Source of the DNA: Mobula hypostoma
Taxonomy: Eukaryota
NCBI RefSeq assembly: GCF_963921235.1
Contig: NC_086108.1
Coordinates: 20,336,001 to 20,400,000, forward strand
Direction: 5' to 3'
DNA: 64,000 nt
The notes beneath the pieces were generated by a model. The model saw nothing but the letters and a program-made list of their open reading frames with translations. It was not told the origin of the DNA and did not search any database. How positions within the stretch are numbered: position 1 is the first letter of the stretch; every line of letters starts with the position of its first letter. Below are positions 17,209 to 59,067 of the stretch, piece by piece. The position numbers were made by a program, and so were the translations under genes.

Positions 17209-17360
17209 AACAACACACACAAAATGCTGGAGGAACTCAGCAGGCCAGACAGCATCTAGGAAAAGAGTTCAGTTGACATTTGGGGCCAAGGCCTGCTGAG
17301 TTCCTCCAGCATTTTGTGTGTGTTGCTCAGATTTCCAGCATCTGCAGATTTTCTCTTGTT
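17209..17360. mobile_element. Short Penelope-derived fold-back element, 12-bp TSD
   Basis: Inverted CACACAAAATGCTGGAGGAACTCAGCAGGCC arms. TCTGAAAGAAAG at 17197-17208 and 17361-17372. Confidence 0.82.
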
Positions 17361-21899: not shown

Positions 21900-24800
21900 G
21901 TCACAAACAAGAGAAAATCTGCAGATGCTGGAAGTTCACACACGAAATGCTGGGAGATCTCAGCAGGCCAGGCAGCATCTATGGAAAAAAAGTACAGTCG
22001 ACGTTTCAGGTCAAAACCCTCCGGCAGGACTGGAGAAAAAAGGCTGAGGAGTAGATTTAAAAGGTCGGGTGAGGGGAGAGAGAAATGCCAGGTGATGGGT
22101 AAAACTTGGAGGGGGACGGATGAAGCAAAGAGCTGGGAAAATGATTGGTGAAAGAGACAGAAGGCTGTGAAAGGTAGAAAAGGTTGGGTGGGGTGGGGTG
22201 GAAGGAGCACCAGAGGGAGGCGGTGAGTGGCAAGGAGATACCATGAGAGAGGGACAAGGGGATGGGAAATGGTGAAGGGGGGAGGCATTACTGGGAGTTT
22301 GAGAAATTGATGTTCATGCCATCTGGTTGGAGGCTACCCATACAGAATATACGGTGTTATTCCTCCAGTCTCAGTGTGGCCTCATCACGACAATGGAGGA
22401 GGCCATGGATGGACATATTGGAATGGGAATGGGAAGTGGCATTAAAATGGGTGATCCGGGTTGTTCTGGTGGATGGAACGTAGATGCTCGACGAAGTGGT
22501 CTCCCAATCTACGTTGAGTCTCACCAATGTACAGGAAGCCACACCAGGCTATTGGTTCTCACACCATCACTAACCTTATTGACTCTGGGAATCTGGGGAG
22601 CTATGATCCACTGCCACCAACCTCATAGTTCCCGCACCCTGTACCGCCCGTTTCTACCACGTACCCAAAATTCACAAACCTGCTTGTCCAGGTAGAAATA
22701 TTGTTTCAGCTTGTTCCTGCCTCACTGAACGTGTCTGCATACTTCGACTCTGTTTTTTTCCCCCGGTTCAGTCCCTTCCTACCTACATCCGTGACACCTC
22801 AATGCTCTTGATCTTTTCAAGGATTTCAGGTTCCCTGGGCCCCATCATCTTATTTTACCAGAGATGTCCTGTGTCTATACACCTCCATCCTCCACCAGGA
22901 AGGCCTCAAACTCTCAGTTTCTTTCTGGACACCAGACCCAATCAGTTGCCCTCCACCACCACTCTCTTCCATCTACTGGAGCTTGTCCTCACTCTAAATA
23001 ATTTCTCCTTTGGCTCCTCCCACTTCCTTCAAACAAAAGGGGTAGTCCTGTACTTTTCCTATGCTACATCGACGACCGCATTGGTGTTGCTTCCTGCAAT
23101 CGTGTTGAACTCGACAACTTCATCCACTTTGCCTCCAACTTCCACCCTGCCCTCAAATTCACCTGGTCCATTTCTGACACTTCCCTGCCCTTTCTTGATC
23201 TCAATGTCTTTATCTCCGGAGACAGCTTATCCACTGGTGTCTATTATAAGCCAATGAACAAGCCGACAAACAGTCAGAGGATGTGCTGGAGCTTTTGGAA
23301 AGCATCAAGTTGGATAAGTCACCGGGACCAGATGGGATGTACCCCGGGCTACTGTGGGAAGTGAGGGAGGAGATTGCTGAGCCTCTGGCAATGATCTTTG
23401 CATCAACAGTGAGGATGAGAGAGGTTCCGGAGGATTGGAGAGTTGTAGATGTTGTTCCCTTATTCAAGAAAGGGAGTAGAGATATCCCAGGAAATTATAG
23501 GCCAGTGAGTCTTACTTCAGTGGTTGGTAAGCTGATGGAGAAGATCCTGAGAGGCAGGATTTATGAACATTTAGAGAGGCATAATATGATTAGGAATAGA
23601 CAGCATGGCTTTGTCAAAGGCAGGTCATGCCTTATGAGCCTGATTGAATTTCTTCGGGATGTGACTAAGCACATTGATGAAGGTAGAGTCGTAGATGTAG
23701 TATATATGGATTTCAGCAAGGCAATTGATAAGGTACCCCATCGAAGGCTTATTGAGAAAGTAAGGAGGCATGGGATCCAAGGGGACATTGCTTTGTGGAT
23801 CCAGAACTGAATTGCCCACAGAAGGCAAAGAGTGGTTATAGATGGGTCATATTCTACACGGAGGCTGGTGACCAGTGGTGTGCCTCAGGGATCTGTTCTG
23901 CCACCCTTACTCTTTGTGATTTTTATAAATGACCTGGATGAGGAAGTGGAGGGTTGGGTTAGAAAATTTGCTGATGACACAAAGGTTGGGTGTGTTGTGG
24001 ATAGTGTGGAGGGCTGTCAGAGGTTACAATGGGACATTGATAGGATGCAAAACTGGGCTGAGAAGTGGCAGATAGAGTTCAACCCAGATAAGTGTGAGGT
24101 GGTTCAGTTTGGTAGTTTAAATATGATGGCAGAATATAGTATTAATGGCAAGATTCTTGGCAGCGTAGAGGATCAGAGGGATCTTGGGGTCCGAGTCCAT
24201 AGCACACTCAAAGCTGCTACACAGGTTGACTCTGTAATTAAGAAGACATATGGTGCATTGGCCTTCATCAATCGTGGGACTGAGTTTAGGAGCCGAGAGG
24301 TAATGTTGCAGCGATATAGGACACTGGTCAGACCCCACTTGGAGTACTGTGCTCAATTCTGGTTGCCTCACTATAGGAAGGATGTGGAAACCATAGAAAG
24401 GGTGCAGAGGAGGGGAGCATGCCTTATGGGAATAGGTTGAGTGAACTCGGCCTTTTCTCCTTGGAGCGACGGAGGATGAGAGGTGACCTGACAGAGGTGT
24501 ACAAGATAATGAGAGGCATTGATCGAGTGGATAGTCAGAGACTTTTCCCCAGGGCTGAACTGGCTAGCATGAGAGGGCACAGTTTTAAGGTGCTTGGAAG
24601 TAAGTACAGAGGAGATGTCAGGGGTAAGTTTTTTGTGCAGAGAGTGCTGAGTGCGTGGAATGGGCTGCCAACGGTGGTGGTGGATGCGGAAACAATAGGG
24701 TCTTTTAAGAGACTTCTGGATGGCTACATGGAGCTTAGAAAGATAGAGGGCTATGGGTCAAGCCTAGGTAGTTCTAAGGTAGGGATATGTTCAGCACAGC

Positions 24801-25706
24801 TTTGTGGGCTGAAGATCCTGTATTGTGCTGCAGGTTTTCTATGTTTCTAGGTGTCATAGATGTAGGTAGGAAGGGTCTGAACTGTGGGTGGGGGATAAAA
24901 CAGAGTTGAAGTTTGCAGATATGAGTCCAGTGGGGCAAGAACAAACTGAAACAATGGGTCTACCTGGACAAGCAGGTTTGTAGATTTTGGGTAGGTGGTA
25001 GAAACGGGTGGTACAGGGTGTGGGAACTATGAGGTTGGAGGCAGTAGATGGCAGCTCCCCAGATCCCCAGAGTCAATAAGGCCGGTGATGGTCTGGGAGA
25101 CAATGGCTTGGTGTGGCCTCCTGTACATCGGTGAGACTCGACGTAGATTGGGAGACTGCTTTGCTGAGCACCTACACTCCATCTGCCAGAACAAGCATGC
25201 TCTCACAGAGGCCACCCACTTCCCGTTCCCATTCCGATATGTCCATGCATGGCCTCCTCCACTGTCATGATAAGGCCACACTTAGGTTGGAGGAACAACA
25301 CTTTATATTCCTTTTGAGTAGCCTCCAAACTGATGGCATAAACATCAATTTCTCAAACTTCCAGTGATGCCTCTCCACCCCCCCTCACATTTCCTATCCC
25401 CTTTCCCCACTTGCATGTTATCTCCTTGCTCACCCATTTCCTTCCCCTGTGCCTCTTTTTTTCTTTCTTCCATGGCCTTCTGTCTCTTTCACCAATCATC
25501 TTCCCAGCTCTTTGCTTCATCCCTCCCCCTCCAAGTTTCACCTATCGCCTGGTGTTTCTCTCTCCCCTCCCCCTACCTTTCAAATCTACTCCTCAGCTTT
25601 TTTTCTCCAGTCCCGCTGAAGGGGTTCAGCCCAAAATGTTGACTGTACTTTTTTCCATAGATGCTACCTGGCCTGCTGAGTTCCTTCAGCATTTTGTGTG
25701 TGTTCC
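21900..25706. mobile_element. Palindromic composite Penelope element with 13-bp TSD, containing a nested CR1
   Basis: TTGGATGACAGAA at 21887-21899 and 25707-25719. Arms ~21900-22798 and ~24850-25706 are reverse complements. RT remnant LELVLTLNNFSF..HFLQTKGV at ~22975-23045. Confidence 0.85.
23253..24849 (+). mobile_element. CR1 LINE, 5'-truncated
   Basis: Motifs KSPGPDG, NYRPVSLTSVVGK, SGVPQGSVL, KFADDTK and LVRPHLEYC. TTTCTATG tail. Confidence 0.93.
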
Positions 25707-27535: not shown

Positions 27536-28164
27536 CACCTCCAAATGGAATGATAAAGACTGAGTACTTCAAATAAAGGGGACCCCTCTCCCCGAAGATT
27601 TTCTAACCAAGTAAAAGTGGACTTCTAAATTAGACAGAATATATTTGCAGGATCTGTAGATCAGCCACGGCATTAATCGAATACCTAAGAGCTTTACACA
27701 TATTCTCCTTTTAGTCATAGGGTACTTCTTGTTAATATTGGCATGCAGAGTCAGACTTGAAAATATCAGCAGGCAAATATCACTGTGCTAGATGTTACTA
27801 GTGACAGAATGTAGTAACTAACTGGCATATGAGAGGGATGGACCTGACATAATTTGGCTAAGAGGGTGGTAGGGTGGGGAGACGGGGGAGGGTTGCACAG
27901 GGGAGGAAATATATCCTGGCCAGTGTTTCATTCACATCATGGGCTGGGAGTTAGTGTTTTTCTTTAAGCTGAGGTGGAAAAGTGGTGACTTTCTGAAAAT
28001 AACACTAATCAGGCCTTTTCTCTGAAATTAGATGATGTTTGTTGGAGATCACAGTTGAGCCCAAATGTGAACAGGATAGATAAGATAAGAGACCAAGACG
28101 ACCTGGAAAGAAATACAGGAAAATCGGAATTTCATGAGGAACACAGTAAATTGGTTGGAGATAA

Positions 28165-28295
28165 AAACACATAAAAGTTGCTGGTGAACACAGCAGGCCA
28201 GGCAGCATCTATAGGAAGAGGTACAGTTGACGTTTCGGGCTGAGACCCTTCGTCAGGACTAACTAAAAAAAGAGCTAGTAAGAGATTTGAAAGGG
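28165..28295 (-). mobile_element. Penelope pLTR fragment
   Basis: Same sequence as 45232-45350 and 58216-58334. Confidence 0.8.
28225..28260 (-). ncRNA. Minimal hammerhead ribozyme motif
   Basis: Minus strand AGTC-CTGACGA-AGGGTCTCAGCCC-GAAA-CG-TC-AACT. Core intact, one mismatch in stem I. Confidence 0.65.
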
Positions 28296-45180: not shown

Positions 45181-45648
45181 CACGCAAACACAAGGAATTC
45201 TGCAGATGCTGGAAATTCAAGCAACAGACATCAAAGTTGCTGGTGAACGCAGCAGGCCAGGCACCATCTCTAGGAAGAGGTACAGTCAACGTTTTGGGCC
45301 GAGACCCGTCGTCAGGACTAACTGAAAGAAGAGCTAGTAAGAGATTTGAAAGTTAGAGGGGGAGGGGGAGATCCAAAATGATAGGAGAAGACAGGAGGGG
45401 GAGGAACGGCGCCAAGAGCTGTATAGGTGATTGGCAAAAGGGATATGAGAGGATCATGGGACAGGAGGCCCAGGGAGAAGGAAAAGGGGGAGGGGGGGAG
45501 AACCCAGAGGATGGACAAGGGGTATAGTAAGAGGGACAGAGGGAGAAAAAGGAGCGTGAGAGAAAGAATGTGTGTATATAAATAAATAACGGATGGGGTA
45601 CGAGGGGGAGGTGGGGCATTAGCGGAAGTCTGAGTAGTCAATGTTCAA
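45181..45648 (-). mobile_element. Penelope 3'/pLTR fragment, 14-bp TSD, inside an older pLTR-like repeat
   Basis: TCTCCCAGGAGATT at 45167-45180 and 45649-45662. Reverse complement of 10985-11268 plus the pLTR end. Confidence 0.88.
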
Positions 45649-50329: not shown

Positions 50330-53300
50330 CCCCCCCGCAGAACCGGCGATACCTCCCCCAATGTCCACAGTCTGGATCGGCCTCTGTTTGGGAGGTCTGC
50401 CCCTGCGCCGCGGTGCCTGAGCCTGGACCGGCTGCGCCAAGTCCACATGGGCCGGTTTGAGTCGGTCCACCGTGAAAACCTCCTCTCTCCCCCGAATGTC
50501 CAGCAGGAACGTGGATCCGTAGTTCCTGATCACCTTAAACGGCCCCTCGTAGGGCCGCTGTAGCGGTGCCCGGTGTCCGCCCCATCGTACAAAAAGAAAC
50601 TTACAGTTCTGCAGGTCTTTGGGTACGCAGGTTGGGCTCTGTCCATGCTGTGAAGTGGGGATGGGGGCCAGGTTACTGAGCCTCTCCCGTAGTCTGTCCA
50701 GGACTGCTGTGGGTTCTTCCTCTTGCCCCCTTGGGGCTGGTATGAACTCTCCTGGGACTACCAGGGGTGCACCGTACACCAACTCAGCCGACGAGGTGTG
50801 CAGATCCTCCTTGGGTGCCGTGCGGATTCCGAGCAGGACCCAGGGAAGCTCGTCCACCCAGTTAGGCCCCTCCAGGCGGGCCACGAGAGCCGATTTCAGG
50901 TGACGGTGGAAGCGCTCCACTAGTCCGTTCGACTGTGGGTGGTAGGCAGTGGTGTGGTGTAGCTGAGATCCTAAAAGGCTGGCCATAGCCGACCACAGGC
51001 TGGAGGTGAACTGGGTGCCCCTGTCGGAGGTAATGTGGGCCGGTACCCCGAAGCGTGCTACCCAGGTTGCGATCGGTGCTCGGGCGCAGGATTCGGAGGT
51101 GGTGTCGCTGAGCGGGACTGCCTCTGGCCATCTGGTGAAGCGGTCTATCATAGTTAGGAGGTACCGCGCTCCTCGTGACACTGGCAGGGGCCCCACGATA
51201 TCCACATGGATGTGGTTGAACCTCCAGCAGGTGGGTTCGAACTGCTGCATCGGAGACTTGGTGTGCCGCTGCACCTTGGCTGCATGCACGTTTTGGCCCA
51301 TTCACTGACCTGCTTACGAAGTCCATGCCACACGAACCTGTTGGCGACCAGCCGGACGGTTGTCCTGATGGAGGGGTGCGCTAAGTTGTGAATGGACTTG
51401 AAAACCCGCCGGCGCCAGGCTGCTGGGACGACGGGGCGGGGTTGGCCGGTAGCTACGTCACATAGTAGGGTCCTGTCACCTGGGCCTACGGGGAGGTCAT
51501 GGAGCTGCAAACCGGAGACTGCAGTCCTGTAACTGGGGATCTCAGCGTCTGGCTGCTATGCCTCTGCCAGCACTGCATAGTCCACCCCCTGGGACAGGGC
51601 CAGTATGGTAGGTCTGGGAAGTGCGTCCGTCACGACGTTGTCCTTTCCAGAGACATGCCGGATGTCCGTCGTGTACTCGGAGATGTAGGACAGATGTCGC
51701 TGCTGGCGGGACGACCAGGGGTCGGACACCTTCATGAACGCAAAGGTAAGCGCTTTGTGGTCTGTGAACGCGGTGAAGGGCCTACCTTCTTAGAAGTACC
51801 TGAAATGCCGGATTGCCAGGTATAGTGCCAATAACTCCCGGTCGAAAGCACTGTATTTGAGTTCAGGTGGTCATAGGTGTTTGCTGAAGAACGCCAGGGG
51901 TTGCCAGCGGCCCTTGATGAGTTGTTCCAGCACTCCACCGACCGCTGTGTTGGATGCGTCCACCGTGAGGGCAGTAGGAACGTCCTTTCTGGGGTGCACT
52001 AGCACCGCGGCGTTTGCCAAGGCTTCTTTGGTTTTAACGAAAGCGGCTGCGGCCTCTTCGTCCCAGGTAATGTCCTTGCCCTTAAACGACATTAGAGTGA
52101 ACAGGGGTCGCATGGTTCGGGCTGCTGAGGGGAGGAAATGGTGGTAGAAATTCACCATACCCACAAATTCCTGCAGGCCTTTGATTGTGTTGGGTCGGGG
52201 GAAGTTGCGGACCGCGTCTACCTTGGCGGGCAGCGGGTTTGCCCCGTCTTTAGTAATCCTGTGGCCCAGGAAGTCGATGGTGTCGAGTCCGAACTGGCAT
52301 TTGGCTGGGTTGATTGTAAGGCCGAATTCGCTCAGGCGGGAGTAGAGCTGGCGGAGGTGGGACAGATGCTCCTGCCGACTACTGCTGGCTATGAGGATGT
52401 CGTCCAAATAGATGAATGCAAAGTCCAGGTCGCGTCCCACCATGTCCATTAGCCGCTGGAAAGTCTGTGCGGCATTCTTTAGACCAAACGGCATTCGGAG
52501 GAATTCGAAAAGTCCGAACGGGGTGATAAGTGCTGTTTTGGGGATGTCGTCCGGATGTACAGGGATTTGATGGTATCCCCGGACGAGGTCTACCTTGGAA
52601 AAGATCCTTGCGCCATGTACGTTTGCTGCGAAGTCTTGCATGTGCGGCACAGGGTAGCGGTCTGGCGTTGTAGCCTTGTTCAGTCTGCGGTAGTCACCGC
52701 ATGGTCTCCAGCCCCCCATTGCATTGGACACCATGTGAAGGGGGGAGGCCCATGGGCTGTCGGACCGTCGTATGATCCCCAATTCCTCCATCTTCTTGAA
52801 CTCCTCCTTCGCCAGTCGGAGCTTGTCCGGGGGAAGCCTTCGAGCACGGGTGTGGAGGGGTGGTCCCTGGGTCGGGATGTGGTGCTGTACTCCGTGTCTG
52901 GGCATGGCTGCCGTGAACTGCGGTGTCAGTACTGATGGGAAATCTGCCAGGACCCTGGTGAATTTGTCGTCGGACACGTGATGGAGTCCAGGTGTGGGGC
53001 TGGCAACTGTGCTTCACCCAGGGAGAACGTTTGAAAAGTCTTGGCGTGAACTAATCGCTTCCCTTGCAGGTCAACCAGTAGGCTGTATGCTCGTAGAAAA
53101 CCCGCCCCCAGGAGTGGTTGGGCCATGGTGGCCAGTGTGAAGTCCCACGTGAACCGGCTGGAGCTGAACTGTAGCCGCACCGTGCGGGTGCCGTAGGTCC
53201 GTATTGTGCTGCCATTTGCGGCCCTCAGGGTGGGTCCCGGTTCTCTGTTGCGGGTGTCGTAACTCGTTGGAGGTAAGACGCTGATCTCCGCTCCGGTGTC

Positions 53301-53380
53301 GACCAAAAAGCGGCGTCCCGACTGCTTGTCCCAGACGTACAGGAGGCTGTCCTGATGGCCAGCCACCGGAGCCATCAGCG
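50330..53380 (-). pseudogene. CsRn1-type pol (PR-RT-RNaseH-IN), frameshifted
   Basis: ORF-track pieces 52926-53468, 51871-52977, 51154-51510 and 50114-51301 carry DTG, SPWASP, YLDD, HVDIVGPLP, TSDRG and PYEGPF. Confidence 0.93.
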
Positions 53381-54073
53381 GCGGCTGGCCTTGGCGTTTC
53401 CCGGGAATTTGCAGGGTGGTCTGCAGCAGCGGGCCTCTGTGCCCCACTGCTGGTGGTAGAAACACCATTGTTCGTTGGGCTCCTCACTCCCGTCGCCGGG
53501 TTTTGTAGGCTCTGCTGCCGGGCCTGGTCTGGTCTGTTGCTGGGCACGCAGCTTGGTGATCTGTGCGACGGATGCCCCTCTCTCTTTCCTGGCATTCCAC
53601 AGCACATCTGCTTGGGCCGCCACCTCCCGGGGGTTGCTGAAATCTGCGTCGCACAGCAGCAGGCATATGTCCTCGGGCAGTTGCTCTAGGAATGCCTGCT
53701 CAAACATGAGGCAGGGTTTGTGTCCTTCAGCCAGGGCCAGCATCTCGTTCATTAATGCTGACGGCGGCCTGTCTCCCAAACCATCCAGGTGCATTAAGCG
53801 GCGTGCTCGTTCGCGTCATGAGAGTCCGAACGTCCTTATGAGCAGGGCTTTGAATGCTGTGTATTTGCCGTCCTCCGGGGGCGACTGTATAAACTCCTCA
53901 ACTTGTGCAGCTGTCTCCTGGTCGAGGGAGCTCAGCACATAGTAGTAGCGAGTGGACTCCGAGGTTATCTGCCGAATGTGGAATTGTGCTTGTTCAAACC
54001 ATAATTGGAGTCGCAGCGTCCAGAAGCTTGGCAGTTATAACGAAACTGCGTGAACAGATGCAGCGTTGGTCAT
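53375..54073 (-). pseudogene. CsRn1-type gag, with stop and frameshifts
   Basis: MTNAASVHAVSL*LPSFW, LGDRPPSALMNEM and the CHCC knuckle. Confidence 0.85.
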
Positions 54074-55090: not shown

Positions 55091-55737
55091 TTTGATGGTA
55101 GCTTTGTTATTTGCCTTATTTGGCAGTGGTACTAAAGGACCTATGCACACCATGAAAGTGAAGCTACTTGAAGAAACAGCACAGTAACCCAATACGATGC
55201 AAGTAGAAAATTTTTGACAAGGTCCTGCTTGGGAGGTTGATCAAGAATGTTCAGTCGCTTGGTGTTCAAGATGAGGTAGCATATTGGATTAGACATTGGT
55301 TTTGTGTGAGAAGCCAGACAGTGGTAGTAGGGGTTTCCTTTCTGACAGGAGGCCTAGTGGACAACAAGGTAGACTATCATGGCTTTCAGAGGGATCTGTT
55401 TCAGCTGGAAAACTGGGCTGAAGAATGGCGGATGGAATTTAATGCAGACTGTGGTGATATCACGTGTAAGAACGTGATTAGAGAGATTTCTGGGTATGCG
55501 CAGAAATGATAGAAAGATCTGGAAGCATGGCGCTGTAAGACACGTGTGGTTGTTACTGTTAAATAAAAGTTCTATGTCTTCCAGAATATGATTCTTTATT
55601 AGTATGTATAAATATAAAGCACACAACATGGTGTCAGAAGTCGGTCTGGAAAAATAATACGTTACCTAACACGGGAGAATCGAAGATAATTGAAGAGTTC
55701 AAACTGTTTTGGTGTTGTTTTGCTAACAGTTTTGCAA

Positions 55738-57278
55738 ATGGAAGGGCTGCAACCTCCACCGACACTTTGATTGTCTGGGAATGTAGCTGAGAACTGGAGA
55801 AGATTTAAGCAGCGTTTTGAATTGTATTTATCAGCAATCAAAGCAGATAGAAAACTGGAAAAAAAGAAAGCTGCGCTTCTACCCCATGTAATAGGTGACA
55901 ACGCAATTGAGGTATATAATCATTTTATTTTTGAAAGTGGAAATAATTTAAAGTTGGAATTGATAATGGACGAACTTGAAGCATTTTGTATACCAAAGCG
56001 TAATGTGATGTACGAAAGGCACAAATATTTTACGTGTGCAGAGAGCTGCTGAAACTATTGATCAATATGTTACTGAGTTGAGACACCAGAGTAAAACATG
56101 CGAGTTTGCAGAACTAACAGACTCTCTCGTTAAAGACAGAATTGCTTGTGGTATTTGGGATAATGGTTTGAGAGAAAGACTGTTAAGAGAACAAGACTTA
56201 GACTTGGAAAAAGCTTTGATGCTCTGCAAAGCTTCGGAAACCGTGACGTCACAGGCTAAAGACCTTTTCATTGAGAGCTACAACGTAGACTCTACTATGA
56301 GGGAGTTAGATATGGCCCTTGTGGCTACGGGGATCGGGGGTATGGAGGGAAGGCTGGGGCGGGGTTCTGAGTTGGATGATCAGCCATGATCATAATAAAT
56401 GGCGGTGCAGGCTTGAAGGGCCGAATGGCCTACTCCTGCACCTATTTTCTATGTTTCTATGTTTCTATGTAGACGCTGTAAAAAAGTGCAAACATATTAG
56501 AAAAAAATAATAAAACAATTACAAAAATGACAGAGAGCAAGATGTCATCTGAGAGAAAAAAGCTATGTGATCGCTGTGGGCAACAGCATCGGTCAAAACA
56601 GTGTCCAATGTATGGGAAAATGTGCAACAACTGCGGTAAGAGTAATCATTTTTCATGCTGTTGTAGAAGTAGAAAGAAAATAAAACAAGTAACTGCAGTG
56701 CTTGAAAATGAACTTGTAGAGTATTATATAGATGTGCTTTGTGAAAAAAAAACAAAGTAAGAATGACTGGACTATTCCATTGCAAGTGAACCAAAACAAT
56801 ATTCTGTTTAAAGCTGATACTGGAGCACAAGTAAATGTTCTTGCAGAATCTGAGTTTAATGCATTAAAACCAAGACCAAAGTTACATAAGACAAATATAA
56901 GAGTGACTGGGTATTCAGGTGCACACATTCCAGTTAAAGAAACGTGTGGCAAAAGTATCACACAAAAATATTGTGCACATGCTTTCACTTGTGGTGTTGC
57001 CAAGGAATGTACAGTCAATACTGGGTTTATCTGCCTGTGAGAGACTGAATTTGGTGAAAAAAGTCTTAGTCCTGGACAGTGACACAGAGTCTGAGTACAG
57101 TGATTTGATGAAAGAGTATGAGGACTTGTTCAAAGGGCATGGTTGTCTTCCAGGAGAGCACACGATTAAAATTGACAACACAGAACAGCCCATAGTACAT
57201 CCATGTAGAAAAGTACCTTTTGCATTACATCATCAACTGAAAACAGAGCTTGACAGAATGGAACAGCTAGAAGTCATA
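55738..57278 (+). pseudogene. Mag-type gag-protease and pre-RT linker, degraded
   Basis: GNVAENWRRFKQRFELY, ETIDQYVTELR, double Zn knuckle CDRCGQQH...C / CNNCGKSNHF...C, protease FKADTGAQVN and RKVPFAL...ELDRME. Confidence 0.9.
56291..56468 (+). mobile_element. CR1 3' tail inserted in gag
   Basis: (TTTCTATG)3 tail. GTAGAC duplicated at 56285-56290 and 56469-56474. Confidence 0.85.
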
Positions 57279-57652
57279 AAGAAAGCTCCCAGACCCATCC
57301 CTTTGTTACCAGCATCTGACAAAGCATTGCTACCAAAACCAGGAGTTGCAATTTTGCCCTCTGGAAGTAACGCACATGCATCAATGGGCCAGCAATTCCA
57401 TCACAATCTCACCTCTGCAGGAGGACAGAGGCCAAACTTGCCGGTACAGTACAATACTGATCTGAAGCCAAAGAGTGACAAGAACCAGGATCCAATTGAA
57501 AAAGTGAAAGCACAAGTGAAAGAATTGAGAAGTTTATTGAAATGATGAAGTCTCAGCATATAAAAGAGATTACACAGTTAATGAATGAATTAGATGAAGA
57601 AAAGAAGATTCGTATTTCATTACAAATGGAAGTGGAAGGAATTAAGAAAGCT
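57279..57652 (+). pseudogene. SH3KBP1: Captured SH3KBP1/CIN85 C-terminal fragment (Pro/Ser-rich linker plus coiled coil)
   Basis: SDKALLPKPG...GQRPNLP...KPK...VKAQVKELRS[frameshift][39 protein letters not shown] matches the remembered CIN85 C-terminus ([50 protein letters not shown]). Confidence 0.88.
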
Positions 57653-57880
57653 ACAGTACTTGAAGAAGCACAACCCATATCATACATGGTCCAAACAGAA
57701 GAAGGAGCAGTGTTAAGAAGAAATCGCAAAGACCTAAAGAAAGAGCTAACTTCAGAGTTGCAGTTAACTGATGCAGACCAGACAAAACATGAAAATAACA
57801 ACGAAACACTAGAACTGTGTGAACCACTTAGAAGGTCTACTCATGTTCGTAAACCCCCAGAGATTGATAGAGACATGTTA
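57653..57880 (+). pseudogene. Integrase C-terminal tail of the Mag element
   Basis: TVLEEAQPISYMVQTEEGAVLRRNRKDL...LRRSTHVRKPP, typical of the 3' end of Mag pol. Confidence 0.78.
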
Positions 57881-58215
57881 AATTATGTTAAGTTATGGTC
57901 AATGTTGCTAATTGTTTTTCTTTTTAAGAAAAGGAAGATGTGGTGATATCACGTGTAAGAACGTGATTGGAGAGAGTTCTGAGCATGCGCAGAAATGATA
58001 GAAAGATCTGGAAGCATGGTTCTGTAAGACACGTGTGGTTGTTGCTGTTAAATAAAAGTTCTATGTCTTCCAGAATATGATTCTTTATTAGTAACCCATG
58101 GTACATATAAATACTAAGAACACAACACAGACAAGTGTGAGGTGTTGCATTTCGGTTGACCAACCTGGGCAGGTCTTACACAGTGAATTGTAGGACACTG
58201 AGGAGTGCAGTAGAA

Positions 58216-58361
58216 CACACATAAAAGTTGCTGGTGAACGCAGCAGGCCAGGCAGCATCTCTAGGAAGAGGTACAGTCGACGTTTCGGGCCGAGACCCTT
58301 CGTCAGGACTAACTGAACAAGAGCTAGTAAGAGAAATCCCAGCATCTGCAGATTTCCTCCT
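58216..58361. mobile_element. Short Penelope pLTR insertion, 13-bp TSD
   Basis: GAGTGCAGTAGAA at 58203-58215 and 58362-58374. Confidence 0.85.
58275..58310 (-). ncRNA. Minimal type I hammerhead ribozyme motif, intact
   Basis: Minus strand AGTC-CTGACGA-AGGGTCTCGGCCC-GAAA-CG-TC-GACT. Stem I AGTC/GACT, stem II GGGT/GCCC, palindromic ACGT helix III. Confidence 0.75.
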
Positions 58362-59067
58362 GAGTGCAGTAGAAGAAATGGATTTGGGAATACAAGTCCA
58401 TAATTTGTTGAAAGTTTTGTCACAGGTAGATAAGTTTGTAAAGAAAGCTTTTGGCACATTAGCCTTCCTAAGTCAAAGTACTGAGTACAGGAGATGGGAT
58501 GTCACATTGAAGGTGTAGAAGATGTCGGTGAAGCCTAATTTGGAGTGTTGCATGCAGATTTGGTCACCTACCTACAGGAAAGATATAAATTAGGTTGAAA
58601 AAGTACAGAGAAAATTTACAAGGATGAGGACCCTGAGTTATAAGGAAAGATTGAATAGGTTGAATAGGTTGGGACTTTATTCCTTAGAACATAGAAGATT
58701 GAGAGGAGACTTGATAGAGGTATACAAAATTATGAGATGTATAGGTAGGGTAAATGCAAGCAGGCTTTGTCTGCTAAGGTTGGGTGGGGTCATGGGCTAA
58801 GGGTGAAAGGTGAAAGGTTTAAGGGGAACATGAGGGTAAACTTCACTTGGTTGTGAGTGTGGAGTGAGCTGCCAGCGCAAGTGGGACATGCTAGCTGGAT
58901 TCCAACGTTTAAGCAAAGTTTGGATAGGTACATAGATGGTAGGGTTATGGAGGGCTATGGTCCTGGTACAGGTTGATGGGAGTAGACAGTTTAAATGGTT
59001 TTGGCAGGGACTAGCTGGGCCAAAGGACCTGTTTCTGTGCTGTATGTTTCTATGAATGTATGCCTCT

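What the first reader, a model, noticed from the sequence alone, without database searches (positions are those of the whole stretch)
55450..58127. LTR retrotransposon that has transduced a host SH3KBP1/CIN85 coiled-coil fragment in place of its RT-RNaseH-integrase
Seen: a 2.7-kb element with both LTRs, PBS, PPT and a CAGAC TSD, so it integrated as a unit. Gag and protease are followed by ~370 bp of non-retroelement coding sequence (57279-57652), then the integrase tail. The pol core is absent. Known: the insert matches the CIN85 C-terminus ([13 protein letters not shown]..IKKA) better than CD2AP. This coiled coil mediates oligomerisation and membrane association. Inference: the architecture parallels defective transducing retroviruses, where host mRNA replaces pol and a helper supplies enzymes in trans. 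If multicopy, this would be a non-autonomous family spreading a host protein domain.
Basis: partly seen in the sequence, partly recalled or inferred. Interest (0 to 1): 0.93.

Follow-up and report, generated by a model that had tools for sequence, protein, structure and literature searches.

The report
Jumping gene carrying captured SH3KBP1 fragment
This is a decayed copy of a crippled retrovirus-like jumping gene of a ray genome that swapped its copying enzymes for a spliced piece of the host gene SH3KBP1 (CIN85) and then multiplied, cargo included, to at least 150 copies with the help of intact relatives.

Summary
Window 55450-58126 is a 2,677-bp Ty3/Gypsy-type LTR element with a CAGAC target duplication. 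It keeps gag, protease and about 55 codons of RT. Then come 383 bp of SH3KBP1/CIN85 coding sequence, then the integrase tail.

The insert is a processed cDNA. It joins the host gene's last four coding exons (G000:C18) exactly at the splice sites, is 96-98.5% identical to them, and ends four codons before the stop.

A 5.0-kb autonomous partner exists. It matches the element up to 57284 and again from 57645. Both joints show microhomology.

The chimera is a family:
- The 3' joint occurs 150 times (reversed control 0).
- There are at least four 5'-joint or deletion forms.
- Copies have different target duplications.
- A stingray protein record carries the same joint.
- Some copies also carry a rabaptin (RABEP1) piece.

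Private mutations are neutral, so nothing shows the cargo works. However, 10 of 11 structural variants keep the reading frame.

The mechanism is known (LTR-mediated retroposition, Tan et al. 2016; maize Bs1). Earlier notes of this scan report the same kind of element with other cargo (SUDS3, RBM25, myosin) in this genome; I did not test them. I rate this a new member of a known kind.

The parts
55445..55449 (+). 5' copy of the 5-bp target-site duplication CAGAC
   Evidence: Read directly. The same 5 bases lie at 58127-58131. DNA-run contigs join about 55446 to about 58131, which is the empty-site form of the repeated flank (table 5).
55450..55628 (+). 5' LTR (TG...CA)
   Evidence: Direct repeat D1. 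Global alignment to the 3' LTR gives 166 matches, 12 mismatches and one 10-nt indel. Homologous LTRs flank other copies.
55629..55646 (+). Primer-binding site TGGTGTCAGAAGTCGGTC
   Evidence: It lies directly after the LTR's CA. The same motif follows the 5' LTR in the family's other copies and in the partner copies. The tRNA was not identified.
55738..56700 (+). gag remnant, broken. ATG at 55738, stop at 55768-55770, two CCHC-type knuckles at 56566-56664
   Evidence: Translations. An unbroken copy's gag-protease is 58% identical to the N-terminus of the 1,285-aa Gypsy polyprotein P0044.
56291..56468 (+). Secondary insertion of a very abundant short repeat, private to this copy, flanked by GTAGAC (56285-56290 and 56469-56474)
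   Evidence: Absent from all 19 other loci compared. Contig depth in the DNA run is in the millions (table 2). No Rfam match.
56774..57070 (+). Aspartic protease (DTGA)
   Evidence: Pfam Asp_protease_2 E 4.4e-4 and gag-asp_proteas E 1.4e-3, both below the curated cut-offs. The same domains are found in unbroken copies.
57104..57284 (+). Retained N-terminal stub of reverse transcriptase (…YEDLFKG…LEVIKK)
   Evidence: Colinear with the partner elements up to 57284 in 9 of 9 partner loci and with P0044 residues about 400-456. Most of it (net 150 nt) is deleted in subfamily b.
57269..57284 (+). 5' joint with microhomology shared by the element and host exon A (GTCATAAAGAAA exact)
   Evidence: Alignment of window, partner and host. 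There are 10 exact shared bases with partner copy L038; P is about 3e-5 in 200,000 random joints.
57269..57651 (+). Captured, spliced SH3KBP1/CIN85 cDNA fragment: exon A part 57269-57311, exon B 57312-57561, exon C 57562-57625, exon D part 57626-57651. It encodes the last roughly 127 residues up to IKKA, including the coiled coil
   Evidence: Host exons lie at G000:C18:80902064-80909871. The window is 97.7%, 96.0% and 98.5% identical to exons A, B and C. Exon borders and GT/AG introns were read. PDB SH3KBP1 coiled coil E 1e-15. 97% identical to a named SH3KBP1 protein.
57645..57651 (+). 3' joint (host …AATTAAGAAAGC | element TACAGTAC…); 3 exact shared bases (AGC), 5 of 7 loosely
   Evidence: Alignment. 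Simulation P about 0.065. The 28-mer across the joint occurs 150 times in the genome, reversed control 0.
57652..57881 (+). C-terminal tail of integrase, in frame with the insert in unbroken copies. The family's stop codon corresponds to 57879-57881
   Evidence: Partner loci resume here in 8 of 9. It matches the end of P0044 (…TVLEKVQPRSYTIQTEDGAVLRRNR…PPERLIESC). Continuous ORFs occur in L011, L003 and L029.
57926..57938 (+). Polypurine tract AAGAAAAGGAAGA
   Evidence: It abuts the 3' LTR. The same position and near-identical tract occur in the other copies.
57939..58126 (+). 3' LTR
58127..58131 (+). 3' copy of the target-site duplication CAGAC

Best explanation
The element is a dead copy of a non-autonomous Ty3/Gypsy LTR retrotransposon family of a ray genome.

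**Origin (inferred from the anatomy).** Inside a virus-like particle of the 5-kb autonomous element, reverse transcriptase was copying the element's RNA from its 3' end. Near the end of integrase it jumped onto a co-packaged, spliced SH3KBP1 mRNA at a short purine-rich match. It copied backwards across three exon-exon joints, then jumped back onto element RNA near the protease/RT border.

**Product.** The result kept everything needed in cis: LTRs, primer-binding site, polypurine tract and the gag-protease region. It lost 2.87 kb of RT-RNaseH-integrase.

**Spread.** It was then copied in trans by the partner's enzymes to at least 150 places.

**Later remodelling.** Further template switches and deletions reshaped the 5' joint into forms c, a, b and d. 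In some lineages a RABEP1 fragment was spliced in.

**Cargo.** The cargo is most likely a passenger. The one constraint visible on it is that lineages which kept multiplying kept one open frame from gag to the integrase stop.
For: **Shown**
- Full LTR-element anatomy with a target duplication.
- The insert equals four host exons joined at their splice sites, 96-98.5% identical, with no 3' UTR or poly(A).
- RNA-type contigs of the host mRNA run colinear with the insert. They leave it at exactly 57269 and 57651, continuing into host exon A sequence and the host stop codon (tables 7 and 8).
- Partner elements share the LTRs, gag-protease and integrase tail at 78-91%, and carry RVT_1, RNase H and integrase zinc domains where the insert sits. 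9 of 9 match to 57284, 8 of 9 resume at 57645-57649, and 0 of 9 have the insert.
- Microhomology at the joints is 10, 5 and 3 nt (P about 3e-5, 0.008, 0.065).
- Multiplication:
  - 40 of 40 scored matches at 91-100% identity, out of 978 first-look candidates.
  - 150 hits for the 3' joint, 47 true hits for the b joint and 43 for the c joint, with reversed controls 0.
  - In 9 assessable loci the 5-bp duplication is perfect in 6, matches 4 of 5 in 2 and 3 of 5 in 1. All differ from each other.
- The same a-type chimera is annotated in another ray, Hemitrygon akajei (P0003). Runs labelled with six coded organisms hold 41-54% of the sampled words.
- Private mutations in the insert are 142 nonsynonymous to 40 synonymous (78%). 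The neutral expectation is 72-79%.
- Only 3 near-fixed differences separate the family from the host exons.
- Frame: 10 of 11 DNA-defined joints or large deletions are multiples of three. ORFs run through all joints in L011 (563 aa), L029 (277 aa) and L003 (233 aa).

**Inferred:** co-packaging, the order of the jumps, and mobilisation in trans.
Against: - No transcript of the chimera was seen. Among the pieces listed for three RNA-type runs, none bridges an element-host joint. Those runs are only guessed to be RNA, and 26,401 pieces were not listed.
- No copy examined is intact from the gag start to the stop. LTR pairs are only 87-94% identical in 11 of 12 copies (one is 78%), so the family looks extinct. 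Trans-mobilisation therefore cannot be observed.
- The order c then a then b rests on mean identity to the host (94.9, 96.6 and 97.5%). Those loci were chosen by best score, not at random.
- The frame argument counts some variants seen in a single locus. It also assumes the events are independent.
- Copy counts are floors set by a 3-mismatch limit.
Confidence: 0.9

Rival explanations
1. The captured coiled coil is a working module of the parasite. Fused in frame behind gag-protease, the CIN85 trimerising helix (and in other lineages the rabaptin helix) helps the truncated polyprotein multimerise or enter the partner's particles. That would favour packaging of its own RNA. The origin is the same as in the best explanation; only the role of the cargo differs.
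For: - All joints and 10 of 11 large variants keep the frame, P about 1.3e-4 if independent.
- The 10-nt match at the c joint would have given an out-of-frame fusion, yet the surviving joint is in frame.
- Rabaptin-bearing derivatives discard the proline-rich part of the insert but keep the coiled coil (positions).
- In the two pattern counts of single forms, the b and c chimeras (47 and 43 hits) are each about as numerous as the RT matches listed for the partner family (113 from 107 scored candidates).
- Both cargoes tested here are coiled coils.
Against: - There is no signal of purifying selection. Only 3 near-fixed changes exist to test, and private changes are neutral.
- An open frame may be needed for other reasons, such as RNA stability or translation-coupled packaging.
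- Purine-rich codons of charged helices (GAA, AAG, AAA, GAG) resemble the purine-rich switch sites. A mechanical bias could therefore explain coiled-coil cargo.
- Internal in-frame deletions of 69-111 nt inside the insert were tolerated.
Confidence: 0.2
2. A LINE-made processed pseudogene of SH3KBP1 landed by chance inside an already deleted LTR element, and the composite was then amplified.
For: LINE-type repeats are abundant around the locus. Retrocopies are common in cartilaginous fishes (preprint 10.64898/2026.06.26.734816, passages read).
Against: - The insert lacks a 3' UTR, a poly(A) tail and its own target duplication. It stops 4 codons before the host stop.
- It exactly replaces 2.87 kb of pol, with microhomology at both borders.
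- It is 5'- and 3'-truncated inside coding exons.
Confidence: 0.03
3. Reverse direction: the C-terminus of vertebrate SH3KBP1 derives from this retroelement.
For: None beyond the shared sequence.
Against: - The coiled coil is conserved in SH3KBP1 from chimaera, coelacanth, gar and crocodilians to the human protein in the PDB.
- The host copy is split by three introns.
- Autonomous partners lack it in 0 of 9.
- The element copies are 93-99% identical to the local host gene.
Confidence: 0.01
4. Assembly chimera or a single-locus accident.
For: None.
Against: There are 150 genome places with the 3' joint. DNA-run contigs cross it: X1 pieces 57522-57677 and 57609-57773. The same joint is in a protein record of another species.
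Confidence: 0.01

Closest known systems
LTR-mediated retrocopies of animals (Tan et al. 2016, Genome Res, PMC5131818; abstract and 12 passages read)
   Same: - A spliced mRNA piece replaces part of the internal ORF of an LTR element.
- Both LTRs are kept.
- Short microsimilarity lies at the fusion points (median 6 bp there; 10, 5 and 3 here).
- The mRNA is copied only in part.
- Multi-gene chimeras occur.
- The locus can be retroposed again as a pseudo-LTR element.
   Different: Those cases are single or few-copy loci: 15 polymorphic fly loci, 5 of 7 zebrafish retrocopies and 4 of 10 chicken retrocopies. Here one capture became a family of at least 150 copies with several remodelled forms, all in frame, shared between ray species.
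Bs1 of maize (named in the passages of PMC5131818; its details are recalled, paper not read)
   Same: A non-autonomous LTR retrotransposon that keeps gag, lacks pol, and carries host gene fragments fused into its reading frame.
   Different: Bs1 is a plant element of very low copy number (recalled) with three cargo genes. Here the host is a vertebrate, there are hundreds of copies, and the cargo is coiled-coil pieces.
Replication-defective transducing retroviruses (the mechanism is named in PMC5131818 passages citing Goodrich and Duesberg 1990 and Swain and Coffin 1992; otherwise recalled)
   Same: Host mRNA replaces pol sequence. The joints form by template switching at short matches. Replication depends on a helper. 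The cargo is fused in frame to gag.
   Different: There is no env and no sign of infectivity or transformation. The element is germline-resident, and the cargo is a small structural domain rather than a growth regulator.
HERV-K capture of FAM8A1 in human (named in PMC5131818 passages)
   Same: A vertebrate LTR element with an intron-less host fragment and microsimilarity at the fusion points.
   Different: It is a single untranscribed pseudogene and was not amplified.
Pack-MULE / Pack-TIR elements (PMC8277862; search listing and abstract start only)
   Same: Non-autonomous transposons that carry and multiply host gene fragments.
   Different: They are DNA transposons. Capture is at the DNA level and includes introns.

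Membership tests
LTR retrotransposon, Ty3/Gypsy type (non-autonomous derivative) | Two direct LTRs ending TG...CA, flanked by a short target-site duplication | tested here: met
   LTRs at 55450-55628 and 57939-58126, with CAGAC on both sides. Other copies have other 5-bp duplications.
LTR retrotransposon, Ty3/Gypsy type (non-autonomous derivative) | Primer-binding site after the 5' LTR and polypurine tract before the 3' LTR | tested here: met
   Read in the sequence, and conserved in position across copies. The tRNA primer was not identified.
LTR retrotransposon, Ty3/Gypsy type (non-autonomous derivative) | Domain order gag - protease - RT - RNase H - integrase in the autonomous relative | tested here: met
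   Partner ORF L038:2534-4420 has RVT_1, RT_RNaseH_2, RT_RNaseH and Integrase_H2C2, all above cut-off. P0044 carries PF13975, PF00078, PF17917/17919, PF17921 and PF00665.
LTR retrotransposon, Ty3/Gypsy type (non-autonomous derivative) | Lacks its own RT, RNase H and integrase cores | tested here: met
   2,866 nt that lie between positions 2776 and 5642 of partner locus L038 are absent. Pfam finds no RT or integrase domain in the window's frames or in the 563-aa ORF of L011.
LTR-mediated retrocopy (Tan et al. 2016) | Internal host sequence is intron-less and spans exon-exon joints | tested here: met
   Three exon-exon joints (A/B, B/C, C/D) are exact. The introns are 4.2, 1.1 and 2.0 kb in the host.
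LTR-mediated retrocopy (Tan et al. 2016) | Host sequence replaces, rather than interrupts, element sequence | tested here: met
LTR-mediated retrocopy (Tan et al. 2016) | Microsimilarity at the fusion points beyond chance | tested here: met
   10 nt (P about 3e-5) and 5 nt (P about 0.008) at the two 5' joints. The 3' joint has only 3 nt (P about 0.065), which is weak on its own.
LTR-mediated retrocopy (Tan et al. 2016) | No poly(A) tail or L1-type target duplication around the retrocopy | tested here: met
   The insert ends inside the last coding exon, directly joined to integrase sequence.
Transducing (acutely transforming) retrovirus | An infectious retrovirus genome with env, spread between cells or hosts with a helper virus | tested here: not met
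   No env-like ORF in the element or in the 5.0-kb partner. The partner's length is filled by gag-pro-pol. It works like one in how it arose, but it is not a member.
SH3KBP1/CIN85 gene family (the cargo) | Three SH3 domains plus proline-rich region plus C-terminal coiled coil | tested here: not met
   Only the last roughly 127-142 residues are present, with no SH3 domain. It is a fragment, not a paralogue.
LINE-mediated processed pseudogene | 3'-complete cDNA with an A-tail and a 7-20 bp target duplication | tested here: not met
   see the rival explanations.

The most novel reading that the evidence does not exclude
This Gypsy lineage of rays is a serial, frame-keeping capturer of coiled-coil-coding mRNA pieces, a retro-element counterpart of Pack-MULEs.

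- It took SH3KBP1 and RABEP1 (shown here).
- By untested earlier notes of this scan it also took myosin rod, SUDS3 and RBM25.
- The chimeric Gag-protease-coiled-coil proteins are selected because the borrowed helices let defective elements multimerise with, and ride in, the partner's particles.
- The side effect is hundreds of transcribable host-domain fusions seeded through the genome.
Probability: 0.2. Interest if true: 0.8.

Novelty: new member of a known kind. Interest (0 to 1): 0.55.

Why it matters
- **A clean vertebrate example.** It shows that reverse-transcriptase template switching can do more than make a one-off retrocopy. It can found a successful non-autonomous family that spreads a host protein domain. 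Here the parent gene, the partner element and several intermediate forms are all still readable in one genome.
- **Annotation.** Such copies are already mislabelled as genes. The 'rab GTPase-binding effector protein 1-like' and 'uncharacterized protein' records of a stingray are element chimeras. They also inflate retrocopy counts that are otherwise credited to LINEs (preprint passages).
- **A testable question.** The frame-keeping pattern gives a concrete way to ask whether defective LTR elements need to be translated through their cargo.

Tried and rejected
- **Pfam on six window frames** gave only sub-threshold protease hits. Rfam found nothing in 55300-58400 at E up to 0.1.
- **The 80-aa frame of the left flank** matches no Pfam family. 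'LINE' for the flank is therefore only my recollection of the motif. Contigs that skip the element show only that the flank is repeated.
- **Expression.** Three runs guessed to be RNA cover the insert at high depth, but those contigs are the host mRNA. No listed piece bridges an element-host joint. Most pieces were not listed, so expression of the chimera stays open.
- **Selection.** Pooled pN/pS against the host is 0.48 and looked like constraint. Splitting the changes showed private ones are neutral (142 N to 40 S) and only 14 are shared (9 N to 5 S; Fisher P 0.32). There is no usable signal.
- **L045** (C12:196.28 Mb) looked like an autonomous element carrying the insert inside RT, a possible intermediate. 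It is a rearranged or nested copy with out-of-order blocks.
I did not resend it, so the a form has no direct count.
Their LTRs, joints and splicing are therefore untested.
- **Earlier-notes look-ups** by place and by sequence returned nothing.
- **Literature.** No paper was found that links SH3KBP1 to a retrotransposon or retrocopy: the 15 listed of 166 all have 0 occurrences of SH3KBP1. None links LTR-mediated retroposition to cartilaginous fishes: the 12 listed of 1,885 all have 0 occurrences of that term.
- **No consensus of the family was built**, so subfamily dating rests on pairwise figures only.
Full report
**1. What is at 55450-58127**

The sequence shows two direct repeats, at 55450-55628 and 57939-58126. 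They are 95% identical over 155 nt without gaps. In a global alignment they show 12 mismatches in 178 aligned positions plus one 10-nt indel, K=0.071. They start TG and end CA. CAGAC lies on both outer sides (55445-55449 and 58127-58131). A TGG-initiated primer-binding site follows the 5' LTR, and a purine tract (57926-57938) abuts the 3' LTR.

Between the repeats lie, in order:
- a gag with two CCHC-type knuckles;
- a DTGA protease (Pfam hits below threshold);
- about 55 codons of RT N-terminus;
- a foreign stretch;
- an integrase tail.

This copy is dead:
- a stop at gag codon 11;
- a private 178-bp insertion of a hugely abundant short repeat at 56291-56468, absent from the 19 other loci compared;
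- a 1-nt deletion in the coiled-coil part;
- a 2-nt deletion that removes the family's stop codon.

**2. The foreign stretch is SH3KBP1/CIN85, taken from spliced mRNA**

Against all solved structures, the window's frame matches only the SH3KBP1 coiled coil: 5abs_A at E 6e-9 and 2n64_A at 7e-9. An unbroken copy of the insert (L011) gives E 1e-15.

Against the protein collection, 43 proteins pass E 1e-3. Of these, 41 are SH3KBP1, from rays (best 97% identity over 98% of the query) through chimaera, coelacanth, gar and crocodilians. None is CD2AP. The other two are element chimeras.

I located the host gene with the part of that ray protein lying just upstream of the captured part. Four exons were found on G000:C18:80862211-80902171. 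I then read 80 kb downstream. The last four coding exons lie at about 80902064-80902210, 80906391-80906641, 80907729-80907792 and 80909830-80909871, with GT/AG introns of 4.2, 1.1 and 2.0 kb.

The window matches them as follows:

| Window | Host exon | Identity |
|---|---|---|
| 57269-57311 | end of exon A | 97.7% |
| 57312-57561 | exon B | 96.0% |
| 57562-57625 | exon C | 98.5% |
| 57626-57651 | start of exon D | aligned (too short for a BLAST hit) |

The exons are joined exactly at the splice sites. The copy stops four codons before the host stop, with no 3' UTR or A-tail.

Contigs of runs guessed to be RNA carry the host mRNA colinear with the insert. They leave it exactly at 57269 and 57651, into exon A sequence and the host stop codon (tables 7 and 8).

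**3. The autonomous partner and the joints**

The gag-protease part is 58% identical to a 1,285-aa Gypsy polyprotein, P0044. Its RT-RNase H part finds a family in this genome with 64-83% identity: 113 matches listed from 107 scored candidates, plus a separate group at 53-55%.

I fetched nine such loci:
- All 9 match the window's element up to 57284.
- 8 of 9 resume at 57645-57649.
- None has anything like 57285-57644.

In L038 the two matches are separated by 2,866 nt. That stretch encodes RVT_1, two RNase H-like domains and the integrase zinc domain. The LTRs of that copy are 5.0 kb apart and flanked by AATTC.

The joints:
- **5' joint.** Element and host share GTCATAAAGAAA.
- **3' joint.** The host reads …AATTAAGAAAGC and the element …CACAAAGAGC before TACAGTAC.

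With present-day sequences the shared runs are 10 nt (a-type 5' joint), 5 nt (c-type 5' joint) and 3 nt (3' joint). In 200,000 random joints these lengths are reached with frequencies of 3e-5, 0.008 and 0.065.

This is the signature of template switching during reverse transcription, not of a DNA insertion.

**4. It is a family, and it kept changing**

The 521-bp stretch across both joints has 978 first-look candidates. All 40 scored match at 91-100% identity:
- 16 match from query position 1-4;
- 23 match from position 52-53;
- 1 matches from position 41.

Alignments resolve four forms that share the same 3' joint:

| Form | Structure | Example loci |
|---|---|---|
| a | the window's form | window, L002-L010 |
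| b | form a with a net 150-nt deletion of the RT stub | L011-L014, L017, L019, L020 |
| c | element sequence to 57116 joined to host exon A 46 nt further upstream | L029-L031, L033-L035 |
| d | a c/a hybrid | L032 |

Pattern counts with up to 3 mismatches:
- 3' joint: 150, reversed control 0.
- b joint: 53, of which 47 are true. Six 3-mismatch hits are the undeleted sequence.
- c joint: 43.

Where both LTR ends could be read (9 loci plus the window), the 5-bp duplication is perfect in 6 loci and the window, matches 4 of 5 in 2, and 3 of 5 in 1. All the duplications are different.

LTR pairs of 12 non-autonomous copies are 87-94% identical in 11 and 78% in one.

Mean identity of the insert to the host exons is 94.9% for c, 96.6% for a and 97.5% for b, from 29 copies chosen by best score. 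This fits the order c, then a, then b. Under that order:
- form a arose when reverse transcriptase switched between a c-type RNA and partner RNA at the 10-12-nt match;
- form b arose from form a by deletion.

This order is an inference.

The a-type chimera is also present as an annotated 321-aa 'uncharacterized protein' of the stingray Hemitrygon akajei (P0003). Sequencing runs labelled with six different coded organisms hold 41-54% of the sampled words. Contigs of one DNA run cross the 3' joint (table 8).

**5. A second cargo**

The other chimeric database hit is P0039, annotated 'rab GTPase-binding effector protein 1-like'. It reads, in order:
- knuckle and protease of this element;
- RABEP1 residues about 61-153;
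- 43 residues of the CIN85 coiled coil;
- RABEP1 residues about 156-172.

Supporting results: BLASTP against a ray RABEP1 and against SH3KBP1, and Pfam Rabaptin at E 5e-42.

In this genome:
- Residues 28-258 of P0039 match uninterrupted stretches at up to 84-85% identity at many places. 175 matches came from 147 scored of about 2,014 candidates, though many are CIN85-only copies.
- The rabaptin piece alone gives 150 matches from 260 candidates.
- At 8 places it lies 10-354 nt upstream, on the same strand, of the CIN85/integrase joint found.

So at least some rabaptin forms descend from the CIN85 family, and they kept its coiled coil and its 3' joint. Whether the RABEP1 piece is spliced, and what its joints look like, is open.

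**6. Does the cargo do anything?**

*Selection.* In 29 copies, changes private to one copy are 142 nonsynonymous to 40 synonymous (78%). This equals the neutral expectation of 72-79%. Only three differences from the host are near-fixed in the family:
- Two are synonymous.
- The third is D to E at the joint. Since the stingray's SH3KBP1 has E there, this is probably a later change in the host line.

The family therefore burst soon after capture, and selection on the cargo cannot be read from substitutions.

*Frame.* One pattern stands out. Of 11 joints or large (69 nt or more) variants defined at the DNA level, 10 keep the reading frame:

| Variant | Net length | In frame? |
|---|---|---|
| 3' joint | - | yes |
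| a joint | - | yes |
| c joint | - | yes |
| b deletion | 150 nt | yes |
| d hybrid | 117 nt | yes |
| other variants | 612, 69, 93, 111 nt | yes |
| 303-nt skip with 6 inserted letters | 297 nt | yes |
| single-locus deletion | 86 nt | no |

If the events are independent, P is about 1.3e-4.

Open frames run through every joint in L011 (563 aa), L029 (277 aa) and L003 (233 aa). The 10-nt match available at the c joint would have given an out-of-frame product, but the surviving joint is in frame.

I read this as evidence that multiplying lineages had to stay translatable from gag to the integrase stop. Whether that reflects a use for the coiled coil or a need such as RNA stability is not decided.

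*A mechanical alternative for the kind of cargo.* All three switch sites are A/G-rich (…GAAAGAG, …AAAGAAAG, …AAGAAAGC). Charged coiled coils are written in just such codons.

**7. Comparison with what is known**

The mechanism and the product type are described for fly, mosquito, zebrafish, chicken and mammals as LTR-mediated retroposition. That account includes microsimilarity at the fusion points, multi-gene chimeras and occasional re-mobilisation (PMC5131818; abstract and passages read). The paper names maize Bs1 and the human HERV-K/FAM8A1 locus as earlier cases.

This element meets every defining feature I could test (see Membership tests). It differs in scale and history: at least 150 copies, several frame-keeping derivatives, a second cargo, and presence in more than one ray.

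It works like a defective transducing retrovirus but is not one, since neither it nor its partner has an env.

A 2026 preprint on vertebrate retrocopies lists SUDS3 among the top parental genes in cartilaginous fishes and ties retrocopy load to non-LTR elements. Its main text does not contain 'Gypsy' or 'template switch' (passages read).

Searches found no paper joining SH3KBP1 with retrotransposon or retrocopy, and none joining LTR-mediated retroposition with cartilaginous fishes (listings only).

Earlier notes of this scan report Gypsy or LTR elements of this same genome carrying SUDS3, RBM25 and a myosin rod. I did not test them. A look-up by this element's gag-protease sequence found no look-alike note.

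**8. Verdict**

This is a well-documented new member of a known kind. Interest is moderate (0.55). The bold reading is a coiled-coil-collecting, frame-keeping Gypsy lineage whose borrowed helices help it parasitise its partner. That reading is not excluded; I put it at about 0.2.

Noticed in passing
window 56285-56474: A 178-bp short repeat ending in (TTTCTATG)n is inserted in gag of this copy only, flanked by GTAGAC. Its contig depth in a DNA run is in the millions, so it is one of the commonest repeats of the genome. It has no Rfam match.
   Followed up: partly
G000, e.g. C12:105430447-105431139, C80:23148036-23148693 (not fetched); protein P0039: A sister or derived multicopy form carries a RABEP1 (rabaptin) coiled-coil fragment with a 43-residue CIN85 coiled-coil piece set into it. 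It is annotated in a stingray as a rabaptin-like gene.
   Followed up: partly
protein P0171: A RABEP1 'isoform X9' record of the electric ray Narcine bancroftii lists a reverse-transcriptase Pfam domain beside the rabaptin domains. This may be another element/gene mix-up in a distant batoid.
   Followed up: no
L045 (G000:C12:196279500-196288500): A partner element's RT is interrupted by a roughly 500-nt piece of a c-type chimera (c joint to LTR start), with a 13-nt overlap of RT sequence. It is followed by out-of-order gag sequence. This is a rearranged or nested copy.
   Followed up: partly
window 58214-58300; also 17212-17293, 21937-22020, 25619-25705, 28164-28250, 45223-45307: An 87-nt repeat unit just right of the element recurs five more times in the window, and also inside or beside several family and partner loci.
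   Followed up: no
window 51871-53815, minus strand: Long open frames of another retroelement (protease/RT-like, 380 aa and others) lie about 1.6 kb left of the element. They are unrelated to this family by eye.
   Followed up: no
host exon A, G000:C18:80902171 region; window 57272: All element copies read GAA (Glu) where this genome's SH3KBP1 reads GAT (Asp). The stingray SH3KBP1 protein has Glu. The host gene therefore probably changed after the capture, which gives a relative time mark.
   Followed up: partly
window 57326-57438: In-frame deletions of 93 and 111 nt inside the captured fragment recur in genome copies (L035, L048) and in contigs of other runs. These shortened forms therefore also multiplied.
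   Followed up: partly
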